A DNA stretch of 64,000 nt, from NCBI GenBank assembly GCA_965246715.1, contig CBDFFH010000021.1, positions 128,001-192,000 of the forward strand, in the 5' to 3' direction. Within the stretch, counting starts at the first letter, position 1. Every line of letters starts with the position of its first letter. Of this stretch, positions 4,049 to 58,870 are shown in pieces. A program made the translations under genes and the position numbers. Below the pieces are notes generated by a model that worked only from the letters and a program-made list of their open reading frames with translations, was not told where the DNA came from and did no database searches. Source of the DNA: Chamaesiphon sp. (GTDB taxonomy: Bacteria > Cyanobacteriota > Cyanobacteriia > Cyanobacteriales > Chamaesiphonaceae).

Positions 4049-4192
4049 ATGACTTTCAGCGATTTAGTCGAAACTGTCAAAGATTTGTCGCTCGATGAGA
4101 AACAACAATTGCAAATGCTGTTACAACAATATCTCAGAGAAGAGCGGCGCGAAGAAATATATAAAAATTTGGCTCTCCAGCAGTTATGGTGA
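4049..4192 (+). pseudogene. Short or truncated antitoxin-like ORF (47 aa), not in the ORF track
   Basis: MTFSDLVETVKDLSLDEKQQLQMLLQQYLREERREEIYKNLALQQLW* resembles the N-terminus of small cyanobacterial TA antitoxin-like proteins. No toxin gene follows. Confidence 0.45.
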
Positions 4193-4421
4193 TAATTTAA
4201 AGTTATCACTTATAGAATCCTTGCTATGTAGGGATTCTACGTTAATATCAGAAATGAAGCGCTCGTCTTAGCCCCATTTCCCCCATACATCCACGAGAGC
4301 CTTGTGGCTATGCTCACGGCTGCAAGCCAGGTGATTAATGCACTTCATCATTAAAATTCTCAAAACAATATTTAGGAGCTTTCGGAAACCCAATTTCTTT
4401 AAAGAAGTCGGGTTTCTTGCC

Positions 4422-6104
4422 TCACAAGGGATGCTCGGATCGATCGAGATCTGGAATTAGCTCATCCAAGATCCGAAAGCGAATATGGTTGATGGCTAAA
4501 TCTCCTAATGAGAAATTTTCCGGCTTGTTATCGGCTTTCATTTTGGTAAAAGAGATCCCCTTGCCGATTTCGGTGTGGTACCAGGATAAACCCATAAAAA
4601 ATCGCTGAGGATATGGCCCACGTTCGATCGTATCGTCCACATTCGATTCCATCGGCAACCAACCGATCCCAGGGACATAAAACTCGATCCAGACATGGTT
4701 AAAATCGGGTTCTAGGGGTAGGTAACGTCGATCGGCATAGGGAGGACATTTGTAACGTCCGATCGTCCGACAGGCAATGCCATTGAGGCGGGCGAGGGCG
4801 AGTAAGATGCCCACATATTCACCACAGGAACCAGTACCGCGCGACAGGGCGATATCTGGGGTATCGATCTTGGGCTGAATACCATAGGACATGCGATCGT
4901 AAACATAGTTACGAATTTTGAGCATCTTTCGCAGCACGTTTGTCTCAGTGCCGACTGCTTCTTTTGCCGCTTGACGGATCGTGTCTGTGTCCATCGCCAA
5001 TTCATCGTCATCGACCAAGTAACGTTGGGCGAATTCGACTGGGAGGGTTAAACTCGCATCGATATCGTTAGGTTCTAAATGATACTTCAGGCCATACATT
5101 TCAACTATTACTTTCCAGCCAAGTAGTCCGCTTTGATGTGGTAACAGTCGATCGAATTTAAATACGGCAACTTTTTGCCCATCCTGTTCTTCGATCGTAC
5201 ACTCGCGACCGATCGGTTCGATGTGGCGAATCCGCTGGCGGAGTGTTTCCGATGGCAGGGCAATCCGCCATTCGACGTTATCGAGCGTGACAGCATCGAG
5301 TGGTAGTAATTCTTCTGCGTAGGAAAATTCGACTAAATAACCATTAGAAAGCGTGTAACGTTCTGTGGGATTGTGGTGAATATATAGCGGGTGAATGAAG
5401 GTGCGATCGCGAAATGTCAGTTGGAACGGGTTCTTGGAATTTGGATCGTCACGAATGTATGGTTCTTCATCGGCATAGACAACATAGCAAGTTGGCTCTA
5501 CTGCCTCTGTAGCTGAATAAAATCCAATTCCAGTTGGCGAGCTAAATGGTGTCAGAGCACTGTACTGAATCGCTCCGGTAGTGCGATCGAGGCAATAGAC
5601 GGTTTGCTCCTGGCGATCGCAAACCCATAATGCATTACCAAGCAGTGTCAGGGTTTCCGTCCCGACACCAGGTTGTGAAAATCTACCGATTTCTTTGCCC
5701 GTATCGCGATCGAATGTATAGATATATCCAGCTTTCTGACAACTGACATATACCATTGCTTCCCAGACTGCTATCCCTGTTACTGGATAGGGAAGCCGTG
5801 TAAATACTGTTGGTGTGAGGGTTTGGCGGTCGCACCACAACACCTCTTGTCCTTTTGCAAACCAGAACTTATCTCGATCCAGAGCGATCCCAGTTACCCC
5901 TAGCCAATCTGCAACGTGATGCGGGTTGAGGACGATCGAGTTATTGGTAAGGGGATCGATCGACATCAAATAGCCCCGTACCGTATCCACACTGAGGAAT
6001 CGATTGCTATCGATCGCGAGTCCTGACAAGGCATAAACACCGATCGGGCGAATGGTTGAATGCTGGGATGCAGCATCTGAAAACCCGCATTCAGACTTCG
6101 GCAT
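4422..6104 (-). CDS. Transglutaminase-like domain protein with N-terminal beta-propeller
   Basis: C-terminal GSCGEY and NHVWIEFYVPGIGWLPME catalytic motifs. N-terminal repeats of G(I/L)A plus aromatic strands suggest a propeller. Confidence 0.85.
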   Translation of the reverse strand: MPKSECGFSDAASQHSTIRPIGVYALSGLAIDSNRFLSVDTVRGYLMSIDPLTNNSIVLNPHHVADWLGVTGIALDRDKFWFAKGQEVLWCDRQTLTPTVFTRLPYPVTGIAVWEAMVYVSCQKAGYIYTFDRDTGKEIGRFSQPGVGTETLTLLGNALWVCDRQEQTVYCLDRTTGAIQYSALTPFSSPTGIGFYSATEAVEPTCYVVYADEEPYIRDDPNSKNPFQLTFRDRTFIHPLYIHHNPTERYTLSNGYLVEFSYAEELLPLDAVTLDNVEWRIALPSETLRQRIRHIEPIGRECTIEEQDGQKVAVFKFDRLLPHQSGLLGWKVIVEMYGLKYHLEPNDIDASLTLPVEFAQRYLVDDDELAMDTDTIRQAAKEAVGTETNVLRKMLKIRNYVYDRMSYGIQPKIDTPDIALSRGTGSCGEYVGILLALARLNGIACRTIGRYKCPPYADRRYLPLEPDFNHVWIEFYVPGIGWLPMESNVDDTIERGPYPQRFFMGLSWYHTEIGKGISFTKMKADNKPENFSLGDLAINHIRFRILDELIPDLDRSEHPL

Positions 6105-21962: not shown

Positions 21963-22068
21963 TATAGCAGTTCTCATCCTAGTAAAGGGCATTATTAGTG
22001 GTTTTAGTGGCTAGTGACTAGTGGCTAGTGGCTAGTGAATGTACCTCCTTCGATTGGGAACAGCTATA
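21963..22068. mobile_element. Short MITE-like element containing a (tagtggc)n array
   Basis: Imperfect terminal inverted repeats tatagcagttctca / tgggaacagctata around a heptamer array. Confidence 0.55.
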
Positions 22069-22157
22069 TCGATTTCGACAGGGGGCAAGGCTCGATCGAG
22101 TCTTAATACCCGATTAACTCCACGATCGATCGACAAATCACTAAAGTTAAAGCTTCA

Positions 22158-22199
22158 GTAGTCAGAAATACAAAATTAACTTTGTTCCAATTCTAGTGT
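22158..22199 (+). promoter_or_regulatory. Class II NtcA-activated promoter upstream of nitH
   Basis: GTA-gtcagaaa-TAC (22158-22171), exactly 22 nt of spacer, then TAGTGT (TAN3T, 22194-22199). Confidence 0.75.
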
Positions 22200-22215
22200 G
22201 ACTTAATCGTTTCTA

Positions 22216-23508
22216 GTGGATAAGTTTATGAATAATTACTATCCGGTCATTATTGTTGGTGGCGGACAAGCAGGGCTATCGATGAGTTACTGTCTGAAAG
22301 AACGCGGTATCGACCATATCATCTTTGAGAAAAATAGCATCGGGCATGAATGGCGATCGCGCCGCTGGGATACATTTTGTTTGGTGACTCCAAACTGGCA
22401 ATGTCAACTTCCGGGCTATCCCTATCCTGGTAACGATCCTGATGGATTTATGCGCAAAGACGAGATCGTCGAATATCTCGAAGGCTATGCCACGATGTTT
22501 GCGCCACCGATAAAGGAAGGAGTAACTGTCACCAAAGTTTGTCAAATCGAGGCGGGTGGCTTCGCTGTGAGTACGAGTATCGGCGAATATACTAGCGATC
22601 GAGTGGTAATTGCCGTCAGTGGATACCATCTCCCCAAGATTCCTCGGCTGGCGGAGCGGTTGCCGACATCGATACATCAACTGCATTCCTCCCAATACAA
22701 AAATCCTGAATCTTTGCCAGCAGGTGGGGTGTTAGTTGTGGGGACGGGACAGTCTGGCTGTCAGATTGCTGAAGATCTGCATCTAGCGGGGAAACAAGTA
22801 CATTTAGCTGTCGGTGGCGCACCCAGATCGCCGCGTCAATATCGTGGTAAAGATGCAGTTGAATGGCTCGATCGGATGGGTTATTATAATCTGTCGATCG
22901 ACGAACATCCCAAGAAAGAGACGGCGCGGAGTAATACCAATCACTATCTGACTGGACGCGATGGCGGACGGGAGATTGACTTGCGGAAATTTGCGATCGA
23001 GGGGATGAAATTATATGGTCGATTGAAGTCGATTACTCCAGATAAGTTGGAGTTTCAAGCCGATTTACGGCAGAATCTCGATCGAGCTGATGCTGTCTCA
23101 GAAAATATCAAACAAAGTATCGATCGATTTATCGAAAAAGAAGGGATCGCTGCACCCACAGAAGCACCTTATCAACCAGTTTGGCAACCAGAAACAGAGA
23201 TTACCGAATTAGATTATTTTGCGGCAAACATTCAAACGGTAATTTGGTCTACAGGTTTTCAAACTGATTTTAGTTGGGTCGATTTACCAGTTTTTAATGG
23301 TAGTGGCTATCCCCATCACGATCGTGGGGTTACTAGTTTGCGCGGTTGCTATTTCATTGGATTGACGTGGCTATATACCTGGGGTTCTGGTCGATTTTCT
23401 GGTGTCGCTCGCGATGCTAATTATCTCGCCGACCAGATCGGCATGATGCAAAAGGCTGCTTCGACAAGTGCTTGGAGTATTGTAAATGAATTTCTGTTGG
23501 GTTCGTAA
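22216..23508 (+). CDS. nitH: Nit1C flavin-dependent oxidoreductase (MSMEG_0569 family)
   Basis: GGGQAG (FAD), RWDTFCLVTPNWQC, VGTGQSGCQIAEDL, TWGSGRFSGV; cluster context. Confidence 0.9.
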   Translation: MDKFMNNYYPVIIVGGGQAGLSMSYCLKERGIDHIIFEKNSIGHEWRSRRWDTFCLVTPNWQCQLPGYPYPGNDPDGFMRKDEIVEYLEGYATMFAPPIKEGVTVTKVCQIEAGGFAVSTSIGEYTSDRVVIAVSGYHLPKIPRLAERLPTSIHQLHSSQYKNPESLPAGGVLVVGTGQSGCQIAEDLHLAGKQVHLAVGGAPRSPRQYRGKDAVEWLDRMGYYNLSIDEHPKKETARSNTNHYLTGRDGGREIDLRKFAIEGMKLYGRLKSITPDKLEFQADLRQNLDRADAVSENIKQSIDRFIEKEGIAAPTEAPYQPVWQPETEITELDYFAANIQTVIWSTGFQTDFSWVDLPVFNGSGYPHHDRGVTSLRGCYFIGLTWLYTWGSGRFSGVARDANYLADQIGMMQKAASTSAWSIVNEFLLGS

Positions 23509-23625
23509 CGGTTGTTACTGCAGAATTAAAAACCTATCGATTTAGACAGGTGGAATAAAGATTGCTGGGCGATTTTTACTCGATCGATCTGGTGACCTAA
23601 TCTAATCATTAGACTTCTGGACTCA

Positions 23626-23668
23626 GTATTGAGAGATACAAAATTCTCGATCGGGCTGACGATAATCT
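23626..23668 (+). promoter_or_regulatory. Putative NtcA-activated promoter upstream of nitB
   Basis: GTA-ttgagaga-TAC (23626-23639) and TAATCT 23 nt downstream. Shares the flanks ca-GTA...TAC-aaaatt with the nitH box. Confidence 0.7.
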
Positions 23669-23704
23669 GTCGTTAATCTTAACAGCTTAAAGGAGCGTGA
23701 TTCG

Positions 23705-24187
23705 ATGCCAGAAGTTACTAAACCCGCCCATCAAACTGGTGATTTCTTTGTTGATTATGAGGAGAAGGTGTTCCCTGATGTGAAAGCCGAACCTGGGGAA
23801 AAAGCGTTGGTAACTTTTCATACTGTAGCGTTTGAAGGCTCGATCGGGTTTGTGAATTTGTTGCAAGCGACGCGGATTCAACGGAAGGGGTTTGAGACTT
23901 CGATTTTGCTGTATGGGCCGGGGGTGACTTTGGGTGTGCAGCGGGGTTTTCCGAAGTTGGGGGATGAGGCGTTTCCGGGGCATCAAAATTTTAATAATCA
24001 GATTACGAAGTTTATGGCTGAGGGTGGGAAGGTTTATGCTTGTCGGTTTGCGTTGCAAGCGTTGTATGGGCATGGGGAGCCGTCGTTGATTCCGGGGATT
24101 CGGCCGATTAGTCCGTTGGATGTGTTGGATATTGTGTTGATGCATCGGAAGGAGGGGGCGTTGATTTTGGACACTTGGACTTTGTAG
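23705..24187 (+). CDS. nitB: Nit1C nitrogen-starvation protein (Sll0783/MSMEG_0572 family, DsrE-like)
   Basis: [37 protein letters not shown]...[16 protein letters not shown] signature. Confidence 0.93.
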
Positions 24188-24207
24188 TTCTTTATTGGTA
24201 GGTATTA

Positions 24208-24398
24208 TGGTGCTTTCCTAGGGATTGCTGGTGGGTGGAACCCGGATCTGGGGGTGCCGACCCCCAGACCCCCCGTTGAGGAGCGGGGTGCCGCCCCTCA
24301 AACTCCCCTGCACAAGGGTCGATCTGTGGGAAGCTTGGCGCGCTTCGCATTGGTGCGTTCTGTCAATTGTTGGCAGGAGATCGCAATTAAATGACTTT
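24208..24398 (+). repeat. ~190-bp GC-rich multi-hairpin repeat, copy 1
   Basis: Aligns to the reverse complement of 25635-25822 (core ccggatctggggg...cccccagaccccccgttgaggagcgg.gtgccgcccctcaaactcccctgcacaaggg). Confidence 0.9.
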
Positions 24399-24555
24399 GT
24401 TTGAGATCTGAATTGCTCTTAGTCCCCCCATTTAAGGGGTTGGGGGATTCCAACTTCAAAGGCAGTAATTCGATCTCGATCGATTCATCACAAAACTCGA
24501 TCGATTTTAATTGGTAATTAGTTTGGGTTTAGAGATTTATGTGAGGTAAAGACTT

Positions 24556-25560
24556 GTGGATGATGGGCGGAAGGTGCGGGCGGCGGCGGTGCAGATTAGT
24601 CCGGTGTTATTTAGTCGAGAGGGGACGACTGAAAAGGTGTTGAAGGCGATCGCTGATGCGGCTCTAGAGGGGGCGGAATTGGTGGTTTTTCCGGAGACAT
24701 TTATTCCTTACTATCCTTACTTCTCATTCATTCAGCCGCCCGTGTTGATGGGTAAAGAGCATATGCGGCTGTATGAGGAAGCGGTGGAAGTGCCTAGTGC
24801 GGTTACGGAGGCTGTGAGTGAGGCTGCTCGATCGCATCAGATCGTCGTCGTGTTGGGGATTAACGAACGCGATCGGGGTTCGATTTACAACACCCAATTG
24901 ATTTTCGATGCCGATGGGACACTCCTCCTCAAGCGACGCAAAATCACGCCTACCTTCCACGAGCGGATGGTGTGGGGACAAGGTGATGGAGCGGGATTGA
25001 AAGTAGTGGATACAGCCGTCGGCAAACTGGGTGCCCTAGCCTGTTGGGAGCATTACAATCCCCTCGCGCGGTTTGCACTGATGGCGCAGCACGAACAAAT
25101 TCACTGCGGCCAATTCCCCGGATCGATGGTCGGTCAAATCTTCGCCGACCAAATCGAAGTTACCATCCGCCATCATGCCCTCGAAGCAGGTTGTTTTGTC
25201 GTCAACGCCACAGGTTGGCTCTTACCCGAACAGGTGAGTCAAATTACCCCCGATGAAAAACTCCAAAAAGTTCTCAGCGGTGGCTGCCACACCGCCATTA
25301 TCAGCCCTGAAGGAAGTCATCTGTGTCCGCCAATTACCGAAGGCGAAGGCATCGCGATCGCCGATCTAGATTTCTCCCTCATCACCAAACGCAAACGAAT
25401 GATGGATTGCGTCGGACACTACTCCCGCCCCGATCTCCTGCAATTGCAATTGAATCCTCGTCAGTGGGAAGTGATGCAAAATCTCGCGATCGTACCCAAT
25501 CTCGCACCAAATCCCGACCCACCCCGCCCTATCGGGCACCCCTCCGAGGAGGGGAATTGA
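24556..25560 (+). CDS. nitC: Nit1C nitrilase (Nit6803 family)
   Basis: Catalytic E-K-C triad: [29 protein letters not shown]; also GHYSRPD. Confidence 0.96.
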
Positions 25561-25634
25561 GAGTGAGTTCGATCGATTTTGGATTTTGGATTTTGGATTT
25601 TGGATCGTTGCTATCCTTTCAGGACTGAAGCTGT

Positions 25635-25822
25635 AAAGTCAAATCGCAACACCCTACCAGCAACCAACTGGACACACTAATGCGAAGCGCGCCCCGCTGC
25701 CCACAAACCAACCCTTGTGCAGGGGAGTTTGAGGGGCGGCACTCCGCTCCTCAACGGGGGGTCTGGGGGAAGCCTCCCCCAGATCCGGGTTCTACCCACC
25801 AACAATTAACAGGAAAGCACCA
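25635..25822 (-). repeat. ~190-bp GC-rich multi-hairpin repeat, copy 2 (inverted)
   Basis: Reverse complement of 24208-24398; many of the mismatches are transitions. Confidence 0.9.
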
Positions 25823-25873
25823 GTCGAAATTCCACCCCACCAGCAACCTAAAACCAAGCACCAATCCGAACAC

Positions 25874-26941
25874 ATGAACAAAAAACAACTAATCACCGAA
25901 CTCCAATCCAAAGGATTAAAACTAATCGAAACCACCGGAGTATCCGGCAGAAAAGGCGGCGCAGGCCCCTCCGACCACAAAGCCATCACCCTCGACGGCA
26001 CCACCATCATGGTACCCATCTACACCGAAACCGCCACCCACTCCCCCTACACCGCCACCCCCACCACCCTCAAACTCCCCAACAACCACACCATCCCGAT
26101 CGAATTCCCCACCACCCCCAACTTCTACCACCTCAGCACCGCCGACGGCATCCCCTACTGGAAAATCGCCCTCCTTCACAGCCACGACGTACTCGCCACC
26201 ACCGTCCAGCAAACCTGTATGCGCTACCGCAACCCCGACACAGTTTGCCAATTTTGCGCGATCGAACAATCCCTCACCGCCGATCGCACCATCGCCCGTA
26301 AAACCCCCGCTCAACTTGCCGAAGTCGCCGCCGCAGCAGTCAACCTCGACGGCATCAAACACATGGTCATGACCAGCGGTACCCCCAATACCAGCGATCG
26401 CGGTGCCGCCTACCTCGCTGAATGCGCCCAAGCCATCAAACAACGAGTCGATCTCCCCATCCAAGCCCAATGCGAACCTCCCGATGACTTTAGCTGGTTC
26501 CAGAAACTCAAAGATGCTGGCGTAGACAGCCTCGGAATGCACCTCGAAGCCATTACCCCCGCCGTCCGCGCCAACATCATGCCCGGAAAAGCCGACGTAC
26601 CTGTCGAGTATTACTTCCAAGCCTTTGTCGCCGCCGTCGAAGTCTTTGGACGGGGACAAGTCAGCACCTATCTCCTCGCTGGATTGGGCGACACCTTAGA
26701 AGCCTTGGTGGCAGGTTGCGATCGATTAATCCAAATTGGCGTTTATCCCTTTGTCGTACCCTTCGTCCCAATTACTGGAACTCCATTAGAGCATCATCCA
26801 GCACCGAGCAGTGAGTTTATGTATGACCTCTATCAACAAGTTGGCGCATTGCTCGCGCGATCGAAGATGTCATCTAAAGACATCAAGGCTGGCTGTGGCA
26901 AATGTGGCGCTTGTTCCGCTCTATCTAATTTTGAAGATTGA
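25874..26941 (+). CDS. nitD: Nit1C radical SAM protein (MSMEG_0568 family)
   Basis: RKGGAGPSDH, an extended C-x8-C-x2-C motif (CMRYRNPDTVCQFC), and C-terminal GCGKCGACS. Confidence 0.93.
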   Translation: MNKKQLITELQSKGLKLIETTGVSGRKGGAGPSDHKAITLDGTTIMVPIYTETATHSPYTATPTTLKLPNNHTIPIEFPTTPNFYHLSTADGIPYWKIALLHSHDVLATTVQQTCMRYRNPDTVCQFCAIEQSLTADRTIARKTPAQLAEVAAAAVNLDGIKHMVMTSGTPNTSDRGAAYLAECAQAIKQRVDLPIQAQCEPPDDFSWFQKLKDAGVDSLGMHLEAITPAVRANIMPGKADVPVEYYFQAFVAAVEVFGRGQVSTYLLAGLGDTLEALVAGCDRLIQIGVYPFVVPFVPITGTPLEHHPAPSSEFMYDLYQQVGALLARSKMSSKDIKAGCGKCGACSALSNFED

Positions 26942-26968
26942 TAAACTCTATTTAATATCCAGCCAAGC

Positions 26969-27475
26969 ATGTCCGACTATCTATTTAAACTAGCCAAAAC
27001 TCAACCGGAAATATCTGCATATTTCGATCTTCGTCACAAAATATTTGTTGAAGAACAGGGTGTGTTTAAAGGAAATGATGTTGACTCGATCGATGAAATT
27101 TCTCATCCCATTATTGCCGTCGAACCTGATGCGACAGCTCTCGAAGTTCTGGGTGTCGTCCGCATATATGAAGCCGAACCGAGACTGTGGTATGGCGGTA
27201 GATTGGGTACTCATCCCGATCGCCGCAAAGGTTGGCAAATCGGTAAAGGATTGATTTATAAGGCAGTCACTACCGCGAACACTTGGGGCTGCGATCGATT
27301 CCTCGCTACCGTCCAAATCCAAAATGTCCGCTTCTTCCAACGCTTACATTGGGACTCGATCGAAGAAATCGAAATCCACGATATCGCTCATCATCTCATG
27401 CAAGCAGATTTAAACTATTACCCAGCAGGTAATGAGATTCGACCGAGATTGTTAGAATATGGTCGAGCATCTTGA
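26969..27475 (+). CDS. nitE: Nit1C GNAT N-acetyltransferase (Sll0786 family)
   Basis: LRHKIFVEEQ, GVVRIY, WYGGRLG, FLATVQIQNVRFF..LHW. Confidence 0.9.
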   Translation: MSDYLFKLAKTQPEISAYFDLRHKIFVEEQGVFKGNDVDSIDEISHPIIAVEPDATALEVLGVVRIYEAEPRLWYGGRLGTHPDRRKGWQIGKGLIYKAVTTANTWGCDRFLATVQIQNVRFFQRLHWDSIEEIEIHDIAHHLMQADLNYYPAGNEIRPRLLEYGRAS

Positions 27476-27575
27476 CTCGATTGTAGTCCGAATCTAAATT
27501 GGCAAAGGAATAGAGATTTATTATTAAGCTAATTAAAAAACTTGCAAAAACTAAGCGCTCTGCAACCGCAGTATT

Positions 27576-28223
27576 TTAATAGCTTATTTCGATTAACATT
27601 GCATTTCCGTGCCTCACAGCATATTGATAGTATTTAACCATCTCTCTATAGTAATCTGTTAACCAATCTTCTATATCTTCTGGATCTTCCCAGTCAAACC
27701 AATCATCAAATCCATCTAAATCAGATACTCTATGACAACGAGATCGAAAACCTGATTCTGATATCCATATCAGACCATCTAAAATTTTACCAACTTCTTC
27801 AGGCGTTTGGTACCAACAACAATCTTCTTCTTGCCCAATCCCCATACCCACATTAATTGCATTGACTAATGGCAAACCATCCCACTCTGACTCCTCGATA
27901 ATAAGGAAATTCATATAACGATCTTTTTGCATCAAATCCTGGCGAGATTGTAGCTCTGGGAGTGCTAAATGTCTTTCAGAATAATCTTCAAGATATCCAC
28001 CCAGTAAGTAGGTCATCTCTGGATAATATTTGTGCAAATCTAGATCTGGAGTTTCCCATTCATCAATAAATCGATCGACATAAGTAGACACAACGAATGA
28101 TGAGTTCACTGCCGATTTAGTCAGATATTGAGAATCATAGAATAACCTTACCTGTTTTGGCTCTTGCTTTAAAATTTCCAGCATAGATGCTGAAATCATT
28201 TTTAGATGAAGAGTGACTCCCAT
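27576..28223 (-). CDS. DUF1877/YfbM-like protein inserted antisense within Nit1C
   Basis: MGV...DLDLHK...YLL.G...YQTPEEV..I...YY..MVKYY..A...GNAMLI pattern; acidic protein, AT-rich gene. Confidence 0.65.
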   Translation of the reverse strand: MGVTLHLKMISASMLEILKQEPKQVRLFYDSQYLTKSAVNSSFVVSTYVDRFIDEWETPDLDLHKYYPEMTYLLGGYLEDYSERHLALPELQSRQDLMQKDRYMNFLIIEESEWDGLPLVNAINVGMGIGQEEDCCWYQTPEEVGKILDGLIWISESGFRSRCHRVSDLDGFDDWFDWEDPEDIEDWLTDYYREMVKYYQYAVRHGNAMLIEISY

Positions 28224-45527: not shown

Positions 45528-45641
45528 GAATTAGGGGAGGAAGAATTAGTCAGATGCGGAGATCCTACCCACCCCGCCTTTCAGGCACCCCTCCGAGGAG
45601 GGGAATTTACCAGCTACTAGTCACTAGCCACTAGCCACTAT

Positions 45642-58600: not shown

Positions 58601-58870
58601 GTAGTGGGCATTGCCCACCAACACCATTTATGAATTAGTAATATAAAATTTGGATTTGTTATTATCGGTCGATTCGTGAAGAGATTGCGATCGAATCAAA
58701 CAGTTTAATTTCGTAGGGTGGGCAGTACCCACAGCACCATCGTCGATTTAGTAATATAAATATTGAGGTGTTTAATGTCGATCGATTAGTGAAGAGGTTA
58801 CGAGCGAATCAAATAATTTAAACTCTTATTGCTTCGGCTTTGAATGGTCTGTGGGCAGTGCCCACCCTAC
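58601..58870. repeat. GTAG-type REP array / REPIN
   Basis: gtagtgggcattgcccacc (58601), gtagggtgggcagtacccac (58713) and inverted gtgggcagtgcccaccctac (58851). The first two head ~112-bp degenerate direct repeats. Confidence 0.85.

What the first reader, a model, noticed from the sequence alone, without database searches (positions are those of the whole stretch)
23705..26650. Repeat-anchored, orientation-dependent strand bias in the codons of the Nit1C genes
Seen: two ~190-bp copies of a GC-rich hairpin/G-run repeat lie in opposite orientation (24208-24398 and 25635-25822). Near copy 1 the plus strand is extremely G/T-rich: 99 of the last 102 nitB codons (23882-24187) end in G/T, and the 5' part of nitC is also G/T-skewed. 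Near copy 2 it is the mirror image: 96 of the first 100 nitD codons (25874-26173) end in A/C, the exceptions being 2 Met, 1 Trp and one CCG inside a CGATCG site. The 3' part of nitC is A/C-skewed and the bias flips inside nitC at about 24900. It fades over several hundred bp and appears to reach amino acids (T/P/H/N-rich TETATHSPYTATPTT in NitD). All three genes share a strand, so codon preference, transcription direction and replichore skew do not explain opposite biases. Inference: the repeat directs local strand-specific transitions (net C>T and A>G on the strand carrying the C-rich version), for example through ssDNA exposure after nicking, fork stalling at a hairpin/G4, or error-prone resynthesis. 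I do not know a described system that does this.
Basis: partly seen in the sequence, partly recalled or inferred. Interest (0 to 1): 0.88.

Follow-up and report, generated by a model that had tools for sequence, protein, structure and literature searches.

The report
Cyanobacterial repeat imprints G/T strand bias
In Chamaesiphon cyanobacteria, genes beside a small mobile double-hairpin repeat have had their silent codon letters, and some amino acids, shifted to G and T on one fixed strand of the repeat over about a kilobase, likely because the repeat makes DNA repair favour one strand, which would give a testable handle on an unexplained kind of bacterial sequence skew.

Summary
The genome holds 51 copies of the repeat. 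Upstream of 15 of 50 scorable copies, third codon positions are strongly G/T on the repeat's reference strand; none goes the other way. The bias repeats at copies in other Chamaesiphon species (24 of 78, none opposite) and a sister genus. Orthologues without the repeat are unbiased, in both directions of comparison. The rank is G > T > A = C, which transitions alone cannot give; A-to-G exceeds C-to-T; divergence in the zone is not raised, so this is a slow 2-4-fold directional bias, not hypermutation. The hairpins fold on the C/A-rich strand, and their core also marks DGR targets and small ssDNA viruses. Best guess (0.4): a nick on the hairpin strand misdirects MutS/MutL repair. No enzyme was found, and a distant genus has the hairpins without bias. 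Closest published: GRINS (same signature, duplicated DNA, no anchor). This scan noted similar zones beside other repeats in other bacteria.

The parts
23705..24187 (+). nitB (Sll0783 family); codons from 23882 on form the strong zone upstream of copy 1, G/T on +
   Evidence: TIGR04044; 99 of 102 G/T; orthologues without repeat 52-74 of 96-99
24208..24388 (+). Repeat copy 1; reference (G/T) strand is +, hairpin-forming strand is -
   Evidence: strand of folding from G.T pairs
24244..24270 (-). Copy 1 stem A, the most conserved hairpin (invariant G.T pair on the - strand, variable 6-nt loop)
24277..24300 (-). Copy 1 stem B, second hairpin with compensatory changes
24556..25560 (+). nitC nitrilase: 5' part G/T-rich (downstream zone of copy 1), 3' part A/C-rich (downstream zone of copy 2), switch near 24850-24920
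   Evidence: TIGR04048; (71 of 87 and 35 of 115 G/T against 37-54 of 81-87 and 48-66 of 113-116 in orthologues without repeat)
25642..25822 (-). Repeat copy 2; reference (G/T) strand is -, hairpin-forming strand is +
25730..25753 (+). Copy 2 stem B
25760..25786 (+). Copy 2 stem A
25874..26941 (+). nitD radical SAM gene; first ~800 bp form the strong zone upstream of copy 2, A/C on + (G/T on -), with derived T/P/H/N residues
   Evidence: TIGR04043; 96 of 100 A/C; G/T 1 of 97 against 30-50 of 96-97 in orthologues without repeat
22216..23508 (+). Nit1C flavin oxidoreductase gene, outside the zone; internal control
   Evidence: 237 of 412 G/T against 206-221 of 407-412 in orthologues

Best explanation
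The repeat is a cis-acting anchor around which one fixed strand has slowly gained G and T at the expense of A and C, and it likely works by getting its hairpin-forming strand nicked, so that MutS/MutL repair would rewrite that strand and keep the mispaired base on the other. Shown: anchoring, polarity, range (strongest in the 0.5 kb on the 3' side of the hairpin strand, reaching 1-2 kb on both sides), rank G > T > A = C, folding on the C/A strand, normal overall divergence, MutS and MutL present without MutH. Inferred: the nick, the unidentified nicking enzyme, and the role of repair. A fixed strand signal would fix the common errors of the other strand (G opposite T, T opposite G, G opposite A or G) and remove the mirror errors, on both sides of the nick and whatever the gene or fork direction. 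Copies spread passively, many inside IS982-type miniature elements, and only long-resident copies have had time to build a zone (inferred).
For: Anchoring: 15 of 50 copies z>3.5, 0 below -3.5; null 2.0% and 1.1% of 3963; 0 of 100000 resamplings; 24 of 78 upstream, 19 of 56 downstream, none opposite; 0.599 against 0.495 at orthologous codons; 39 of 54 loci higher, 11 lower; sister genus 9 of 25, pooled z 11.5. Same strand on both sides with decay over 1-2 kb, as for a nick-directed repair tract (nick 5' or 3' of the mismatch, up to 1 kb in E. coli; passages of PMC8744996). Spectrum: logit shifts G over A +1.4 to +1.6, G over T +0.88, T over C +0.74 to +0.84, A over C +0.06; transition-only models fail. 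Rates against G011: towards G/T 0.132 [0.075-0.203] against 0.056, away 0.035 [0.020-0.054] against 0.056. Folding strand: 94% of 575 cells paired, invariant G.T in 28 of 28, 22 more G.T cells. MutS1 and MutL over cut-off, MutH not found while the control rang. A strand-misdirected repair model has been proposed for HIP1 in cyanobacteria (passages of PMC4390886; a hypothesis there).
Against: No nick was observed and no nicking enzyme is linked: no recurrent enzyme neighbour among 168 loci; none of six Y1-HUH matches is flanked by this repeat. The rate test does not separate models: 118 differences observed, 149 expected for mutation bias only, 97 for a symmetric fixation bias, 111 for background; the weak bins fit mutation bias (67 against 67 and 46); it assumes stationarity and has one genome pair, no close outgroup. 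The neighbour-base preference that I recall for uncorrected replication errors (3' C) is not seen: A-to-G shift 1.16 before C against 1.62-1.82 before G or T, though composition confounds this. Mismatch-repair escape gives mostly transitions (recalled), so the gain of G from T and C is only partly explained. A distant genus carries the same tandem hairpins with no zone (0 of 28 loci, pooled z -0.4), and G108 (z 0.5) and G483 (z -2.2) show none either. 35 of 50 copies in this genome are below z 3.5.
Confidence: 0.4

Rival explanations
1. The hairpins are a single-strand priming or restart signal, as on small ssDNA replicons. The hairpin strand serves as template and the G/T strand is re-made again and again by a low-fidelity polymerase, which would leave G and T misinsertions on the new strand.
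For: The stem-A core occurs in 118 viral stretches, among them 4 microvirus-type genomes with a REP_ORF2-G2P gene and several 2-3 kb circular-Rep-type genomes (labels from my reading of the proteins). The rank G > T > A = C fits misinsertion on a new strand. In other species the downstream zone is long and flat (excess 0.09 to 0.05 out to 2 kb), as for extension from a start site.
Against: Extension from the repeat runs downstream only, yet the strongest zone is upstream. It predicts no drop in the reverse rate, and the estimate is lower (marginal). No primase or polymerase gene is linked.
Confidence: 0.24
2. The repeat is a polar recombination hot spot between chromosome copies: the G/T strand always invades, and alleles that form the more stable mispairs (G.T, G.A, G.G) are converted more often. 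This would also produce GRINS.
For: Skewed patches away from the repeat are enriched in duplicated DNA (59 of 207 against 104 of 785), as GRINS are (PMC8256042). Forward rate up and reverse rate down fit a fixation bias. The rank matches mispair stability (recalled).
Against: The nit genes and 18 of 24 strongly skewed windows near copies are single-copy, so conversion needs standing variation between chromosome copies or cells. The E. coli Chi octamer (recalled motif), present in several strong copies, has no effect alone (437 sites, mean z 0.15).
Confidence: 0.13
3. One reading: the G/T strand is left single-stranded near the repeat (fork stalling at hairpin or G-quadruplex, gap or bubble) and deaminates, C to T and A to G.
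For: The direction of both transitions fits; four G runs on the hairpin strand could form a quadruplex (sequence).
Against: Deamination predicts C-to-T well above A-to-G and G about equal to T; observed is A-to-G above C-to-T and G 350, T 96, A 38, C 17 in the strongest bins. The same hairpins give no zone in another genus.
Confidence: 0.11
4. Selection keeps the flanks G/T on one strand for a function of the element (unstructured C/A-rich ssDNA or RNA, protein loading, Rho site, avoidance of pairing with the hairpin).
For: A fixation bias is not excluded; HIP1 cores persist inside the zones (4.4 against 4.5 per kb).
Against: The bias holds in sense and antisense genes and at 5' and 3' gene ends, decays smoothly over 1-2 kb and changes conserved residues. 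No Rho over cut-off, no terminator-like site at either copy. The flanks are rich in the letter that pairs with the element's free runs, not poor in it (sequence). Copies differ between species, and 35 of 50 have no strong zone.
Confidence: 0.07
5. The segments came from donors with such codon habits, or the pattern is a gene-end or gene-calling artefact.
For: The genome-wide null is overdispersed (sd 1.5-1.6), and 207 of 231 windows with |z|>4 lie away from the repeat. Gene calls are my own.
Against: The sign follows the repeat at 15 of 15 strong copies here and 24 of 24 in other species; matched intergenic null means are 0.12 and -0.13; the bias flips inside one gene; G011 shares genes, repeats and bias.
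Confidence: 0.02

Closest known systems
[quoted passage not shown] 2021, PMC8256042; parts 1-4 of 5 of the text read, supplements not read)
   Same: Correlated G-over-C and T-over-A skew, strongest at third codon positions, abrupt sign changes within 1 kb, and the same residue shifts (Pro, Thr, His, Gln against Gly, Val, Cys, Trp); mechanism unknown.
   Different: GRINS are defined as duplicated stretches over 500 bp; no anchor or polarity rule is described. Here the skewed genes are mostly single-copy, and a short hairpin element sets position, sign and gradient.
REP/REPIN elements with RAYT (TnpA-REP) HUH nucleases (PMC6006769, passages read)
   Same: Dispersed intergenic hairpins that fold on one strand, sometimes in convergent pairs; the genome encodes Y1 enzymes that could nick such a strand.
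   Different: No GTAG/GTGG foot (2 of 51 copies); no Y1 gene flanked by this repeat; the word 'skew' does not occur in that paper.
DGR target hairpin/cruciform (Guo et al. 2011, PMC3240598; abstract and passages read)
   Same: The stem-A core sits 3-6 nt behind the target gene in 29 of 113 viral loci with A-specific template/variable repeat pairs and a reverse transcriptase nearby; that paper postulates a nick near such a hairpin by an unidentified nuclease and finds no dependence on replication direction.
   Different: No template repeat beside any copy here; DGRs remove A from the hairpin strand over about 100 bp, whereas here that strand gains A and C over 1-2 kb.
Replication-linked GC/keto skew (own knowledge)
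   Same: Same direction of letters: G over C and T over A on one strand.
   Different: Local, far stronger, and opposite in sign at two copies 1.3 kb apart; 20-kb samples of the complete relative G011 show skews within about 0.06.
Proposed methylation-directed repair that creates HIP1 sites in cyanobacteria (Elhai 2015, PMC4390886; passages read)
   Same: A fixed strand signal that would steer MutS/MutL and so shape sequence within about 1 kb.
   Different: A hypothesis about a palindromic site and its edge bases; HIP1 sites show no oriented zone here (mean z 0.00).

Membership tests
GRINS | Intense, correlated GC and TA skew, strongest at third codon positions | tested here: met
GRINS | Region over 500 bp duplicated at over 80% identity | tested here: not met
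   nit windows have no second copy; 18 of 24 skewed windows near copies are single
GRINS | Spread by gene conversion between paralogues | not tested
   no paralogue for the nit genes; conversion between chromosome copies cannot be seen in these data
REP/REPIN-RAYT | GTAG or GTGG 0-2 nt before the hairpin | tested here: not met
   2 of 51 copies; definition from PMC6006769
REP/REPIN-RAYT | Cognate Y1 transposase gene flanked by the repeat | tested here: not met
   6 Y1 matches, none flanked by this repeat in the 1.4 kb viewed; several carry other REPs; no recurrent neighbour in 168 loci
REP/REPIN-RAYT | Dispersed multi-copy hairpin folding on one strand | tested here: met
Diversity-generating retroelement | Template repeat differing from the target at adenines | tested here: not met
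   0 A-specific pairs for 150-bp flanks on both sides of 51 copies
Diversity-generating retroelement | DGR reverse transcriptase beside target or template | tested here: not met
   only 27%-identity RT matches, nearest 3.3 kb from a copy
Diversity-generating retroelement | GC-rich hairpin behind the target | tested here: met
   same core motif at 29 of 113 viral loci; resemblance only
IS91/ISCR rolling-circle element end | Y2 transposase in the genome | tested here: inconclusive
   no match, but the control genomes were silent too
Chi-type recombination hot spot | A short octamer that acts alone and polarly | tested here: not met
   E. coli Chi (recalled motif) 437 sites, mean z 0.15; no 7-9-mer stands out beyond composition
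Single-strand priming signal (ssi/pas/sso) | Primes complementary-strand synthesis on ssDNA | not testable with these tools
   motif present in small ssDNA-type genomes; function untested
Known structured RNA | Match to an Rfam family | tested here: not met
   0 matches at E<=1 in 22000-28000
Nick-directed MutS/MutL repair without MutH | MutS1 and MutL present, MutH absent | tested here: met
Nick-directed MutS/MutL repair without MutH | Strand-specific nick at the repeat and loss of bias without MutS/MutL | not testable with these tools
   needs bench work

The most novel reading that the evidence does not exclude
A hairpin motif shared by chromosomal repeats, DGR targets and small ssDNA viruses is the docking site of a host strand-processing activity (nickase or primosome). 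Parked in a chromosome, it permanently tells repair which strand to trust, so a 100-bp mobile element rewrites the codons and residues of neighbouring genes by orientation. The same activity would be the missing seed of GRINS and the missing strand-opening step of DGR homing.
Probability: 0.25. Interest if true: 0.92.

Novelty: new variant of a known kind. Interest (0 to 1): 0.77.

Why it matters
GRINS-type skews have had no mechanism and no handle for experiment. Here a defined, transplantable element of about 100 bp predicts where the skew lies, which sign it has and how it decays, in culturable cyanobacteria, so the cause can be tested with one reporter and a few repair mutants. It shows a mobile repeat changing protein sequence at a distance without inserting into the gene, and such zones would mislead codon-bias, selection and horizontal-transfer analyses. 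The overlap of the hairpin core with DGR targets and ssDNA replicons points to a host activity that has not been identified in either setting.

Tried and rejected
Rfam: nothing. Annotated plasmids and phages: no match to the repeat; strict pattern absent from viral contigs and found in 2 of 301 phylum genomes, both of the genus. Chi and any 7-9-mer as sole cause: rejected. A 5' motif (GTAG/GTGG-AACCC) as the active part: suggested by two partial copies with zones (C35, C43) but not kept, since strong copies in other species lack it and only 2 of 24 free matches have a zone. Rho site: no Rho. Terminator: none at either copy. RAYT, IS91 and DGR membership: see tests. Dedicated enzyme gene: none (clustering only, neighbours not scanned against Pfam, and the largest cluster was chained by repeat-spanning frames). 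Hypermutation: divergence from G011 in the core zone 0.051 (2-fold), 0.097 (4-fold), 0.034 (amino acid) against 0.053, 0.112, 0.033. Carrier ends alone: mean z 0.23 at 272 scored sites. Other repeat families: no consistent oriented zone except a weak one at a GTAG-type REP. Expression: no RNA holder listed. Contigs of four runs cover the region but are mixed strains and gave no polarisation. My recall that DGR homing depends on replication direction was wrong for BPP-1. First structure string was misregistered and redone. Literature: searches (listings and abstract starts only, apart from the papers named) found no description of a repeat-anchored strand-skew zone in bacteria; subscription journals are largely missing, and no supplements were read.
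Full report
Observation. The counts are exact. 99 of the last 102 nitB codons end in G/T and 96 of the first 100 nitD codons in A/C, and nitC switches near 24850-24920. The two repeats are 24208-24388 and 25642-25822, 83% complementary. The genes are the known Nit1C cluster and matter here only as a substrate. All 80 record titles listed for the repeat in the species collection are Chamaesiphon (90 loci returned, about 260 stretches estimated), so the window is most likely from that genus.

The effect belongs to the repeat. The genome holds 51 copies with the core. I call the strand that reads G-run, loop, CCCCCAGACCCC the reference strand. With my own gene calls (5453 frames) the pooled excess of G/T at third positions on that strand has z 15.7 at -300 to -100, 7.9 at -500 to -300 and 2-4 downstream. 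With codon-family expectations and 54 repetitive genes left out, 15 of 50 scorable copies have upstream z>3.5 and none is below -3.5; matched intergenic positions give 2.0% and 1.1% of 3963, and 0 of 100000 resamplings reach the observed mean; downstream 9 of 46 exceed 3 and 2 are below -3, both of these facing an opposite copy or partial copy. Strong zones occur in genes on either strand and at either gene end. In 91 copies from other species 24 of 78 upstream and 19 of 56 downstream zones are strong and none is opposite; there the downstream zone reaches 2 kb. A sister genus shows it too (9 of 25, pooled z 11.5).

Controls in both directions. Seven genomes with Nit1C genes but no repeat match there are unbiased or mildly biased (nitB tail 52-74 of 96-99 G/T against 95 of 98; nitD start 30-50 of 96-97 in the six that hold it, against 1 of 97), and the close relative G011 has both repeats and the same bias. 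Conversely, where another species has a copy and this genome has none, orthologous synonymous sites are 0.599 against 0.495 G/T upstream (39 of 54 loci higher, 11 lower) and 0.613 against 0.523 downstream (33 of 42 higher, 9 lower). In NitD residues 56-83 the replacements run towards C and A on the coding strand.

Limits of the rule. 35 of 50 copies have no strong upstream zone. Copies next to the inverted ends of a miniature element are mostly blank (4 of 31 strong, mean z 0.70) against 10 of 20 solo copies (mean 3.98). Those ends also bound a DDE_Tnp_1_3 transposase gene, which I label IS982-type from recall, and show apparent 5-bp target duplications. The simplest reading is that carried copies are young; insulation by the ends is not excluded. 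A distant genus has the same tandem hairpins in 29 loci with no zone (pooled z -0.4), G108 and G483 show none, G478 and G505 weak ones. So the hairpins are not sufficient: age or a host factor is needed. Also, 207 of 231 strongly skewed 500-bp windows lie away from the repeat; they are enriched in duplicated DNA (59 of 207 against 104 of 785) and look like GRINS.

What kind of change. At four-fold sites the reference strand is G-dominated: G 660, T 291, A 135, C 129 upstream of 16 chosen strong copies, and G 350, T 96, A 38, C 17 in the strongest bins. Logit shifts are G over A +1.4 to +1.6, G over C +1.58, G over T +0.88, T over C +0.74 to +0.84, A over C +0.06. Boosting A-to-G and C-to-T even 30-fold leaves G at 0.48, so changes from T and C to G, or fewer losses of G, are needed. 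Against G011 the core zones of ten chosen strong copies are no more diverged than background (two-fold 0.051 against 0.053, four-fold 0.097 against 0.112, amino acid 0.034 against 0.033); under stationarity the rate towards G/T is about 2-3 times background and the reverse rate about 0.5-0.6 times. A site-wise version did not separate mutation bias from fixation bias (118 observed; 149, 97 and 111 expected for mutation, fixation and background). The process is slow and directional.

Anatomy. On an alignment of 28 copies that I chose (the two window copies and 26 of the 90 loci), two stems pair in 94% of 575 cells on the strand opposite to the reference strand, with an invariant G.T pair in stem A and 22 further G.T cells, which would be A.C mismatches on the reference strand. 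So the hairpins work on the C/A-flanked strand, and the strongest zone is on its 3' side. There is no Rfam match, terminator-like site or Rho gene. A looser pattern for stem A occurs in 38 of 301 genomes of the order and 118 viral stretches. Of 113 viral loci tested, 29 are DGR-like, with the hairpin 3-6 nt behind the target and an A-specific template repeat; 5 of 5 neighbours tested are RVT_1 and 4 other loci carry a REP_ORF2-G2P gene. The pattern was chosen from this repeat, and G-rich hairpins may converge, so this is a resemblance and not proof of common function. The chromosome copies are not DGR targets.

Mechanism. The data require one fixed strand to win on both sides of the element, over 1-2 kb, independent of gene and fork direction, with rank G > T > A = C and without more divergence. 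A recurring nick on the hairpin strand that steers MutS/MutL meets all of these: errors made on the other strand would be copied into the hairpin strand, and the mirror errors removed. The genome has MutS1 and MutL and no MutH; for such bacteria PMC8744996 (passages) discusses pre-existing nicks as strand signals and calls the matter open, and PMC4390886 (passages) proposes a misdirected-repair model for HIP1. Against it: no nick seen, no enzyme linked, no 3'-C context effect, and an only partly explained gain of G by transversion. I give it 0.4. Priming with low-fidelity resynthesis (0.24) and polar conversion (0.13) share its logic that the G/T strand's mispaired base is kept; deamination of exposed DNA (0.11) and selection (0.07) fit worse.

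Comparison and novelty. GRINS (PMC8256042, parts 1-4 of 5 read) have the same letter and residue signature and no known cause, but are defined by duplication, which fails here, and have no described anchor. REP/RAYT (PMC6006769, passages), DGR (PMC3240598, abstract and passages), IS91 and Chi tests fail or stay open. Ten literature searches found no account of a repeat-anchored skew zone in bacteria; the library lacks most subscription papers and I read no supplements. Earlier notes of this scan describe similar zones beside other repeats in other bacteria; they are unchecked and gave me the GRINS lead and the word 'halo'. I rate it a new variant of a known kind: the GRINS signature with a defined cis anchor, reciprocal controls and a testable mechanism. 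Interest 0.77.

Noticed in passing
G000 C2:229500-231400, C51:16550-18150 and 4100-5350, C2:155800-156750 and 161600-162600, C39:88300-89400: Sharp-edged G/T or A/C patches inside housekeeping-type genes (glutamate synthase, aconitase, methionine synthase, chelatase-like, by my reading of the proteins) with no copy of the repeat; many are duplicated, i.e. GRINS-like.
   Followed up: partly
G000 C10:14800-18500, C3:3050-7650, C18: Plasmid-like contigs with relaxase- and primase-like genes show long one-strand G/T tracts, possibly from single-stranded transfer.
   Followed up: no
G000 genome-wide, GTAG-type REP (114 sites; e.g. beside the Y1 gene in L044): Weak A/C excess on the REP's own strand 3' of the hairpin (mean z -0.67; 12 below -3.5 against 3 above 3.5), the same sense as this repeat relative to the folded strand; many lie beside repetitive RHS-type genes.
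   Followed up: partly
L232, L234, L237, L240, L243 and 24 more viral loci: A large set of phage DGRs share one hairpin sequence motif directly behind the target gene, although stem sequence is reported as free in BPP-1.
   Followed up: partly
L249, L276, L288, L290; L233, L253, L254, L267, L285: The same hairpin core lies in the non-coding region of microvirus-type and small circular Rep-type genomes.
   Followed up: partly
L220, L244, L280, L283, L292 and about 9 more: A further group of viral loci carries the hairpin core at a shared position with G/T-rich 5' flanks; the neighbouring frame has no Pfam match.
   Followed up: no
G000 genome-wide; L219: 341 inverted-end sites of a miniature element tied to a DDE_Tnp_1_3 transposase carry varied cargo, including this repeat and other transposase genes; stems of the repeat often hold nested short inserts.
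   Followed up: partly
G000 C35:74915-74950 and C43:59940-59990: Partial copies that keep only the 5' part of the repeat, one inside a coding sequence, still sit in correctly oriented zones (z 6.5 and 5.8).
   Followed up: partly
window 25518-25554, 24421-24449, 25577-25592: Three unrelated short repeats: a palindromic repeat read in frame at the end of nitC (also at 45572), a G/C-run palindrome after copy 1, and a heptamer array.
   Followed up: no
window 58619-58828 (G000 C21:186011-186900, L043): A RAYT-type Y1 gene interrupted by one TGA, followed by REP-bearing repeats; a full-length paralogue is in L044.
   Followed up: no
G000 C15:199163/199512, C43:59606/59966; L115: Convergent pairs of the repeat about 350 bp apart, REPIN-like in layout, with zones pointing outward.
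   Followed up: partly
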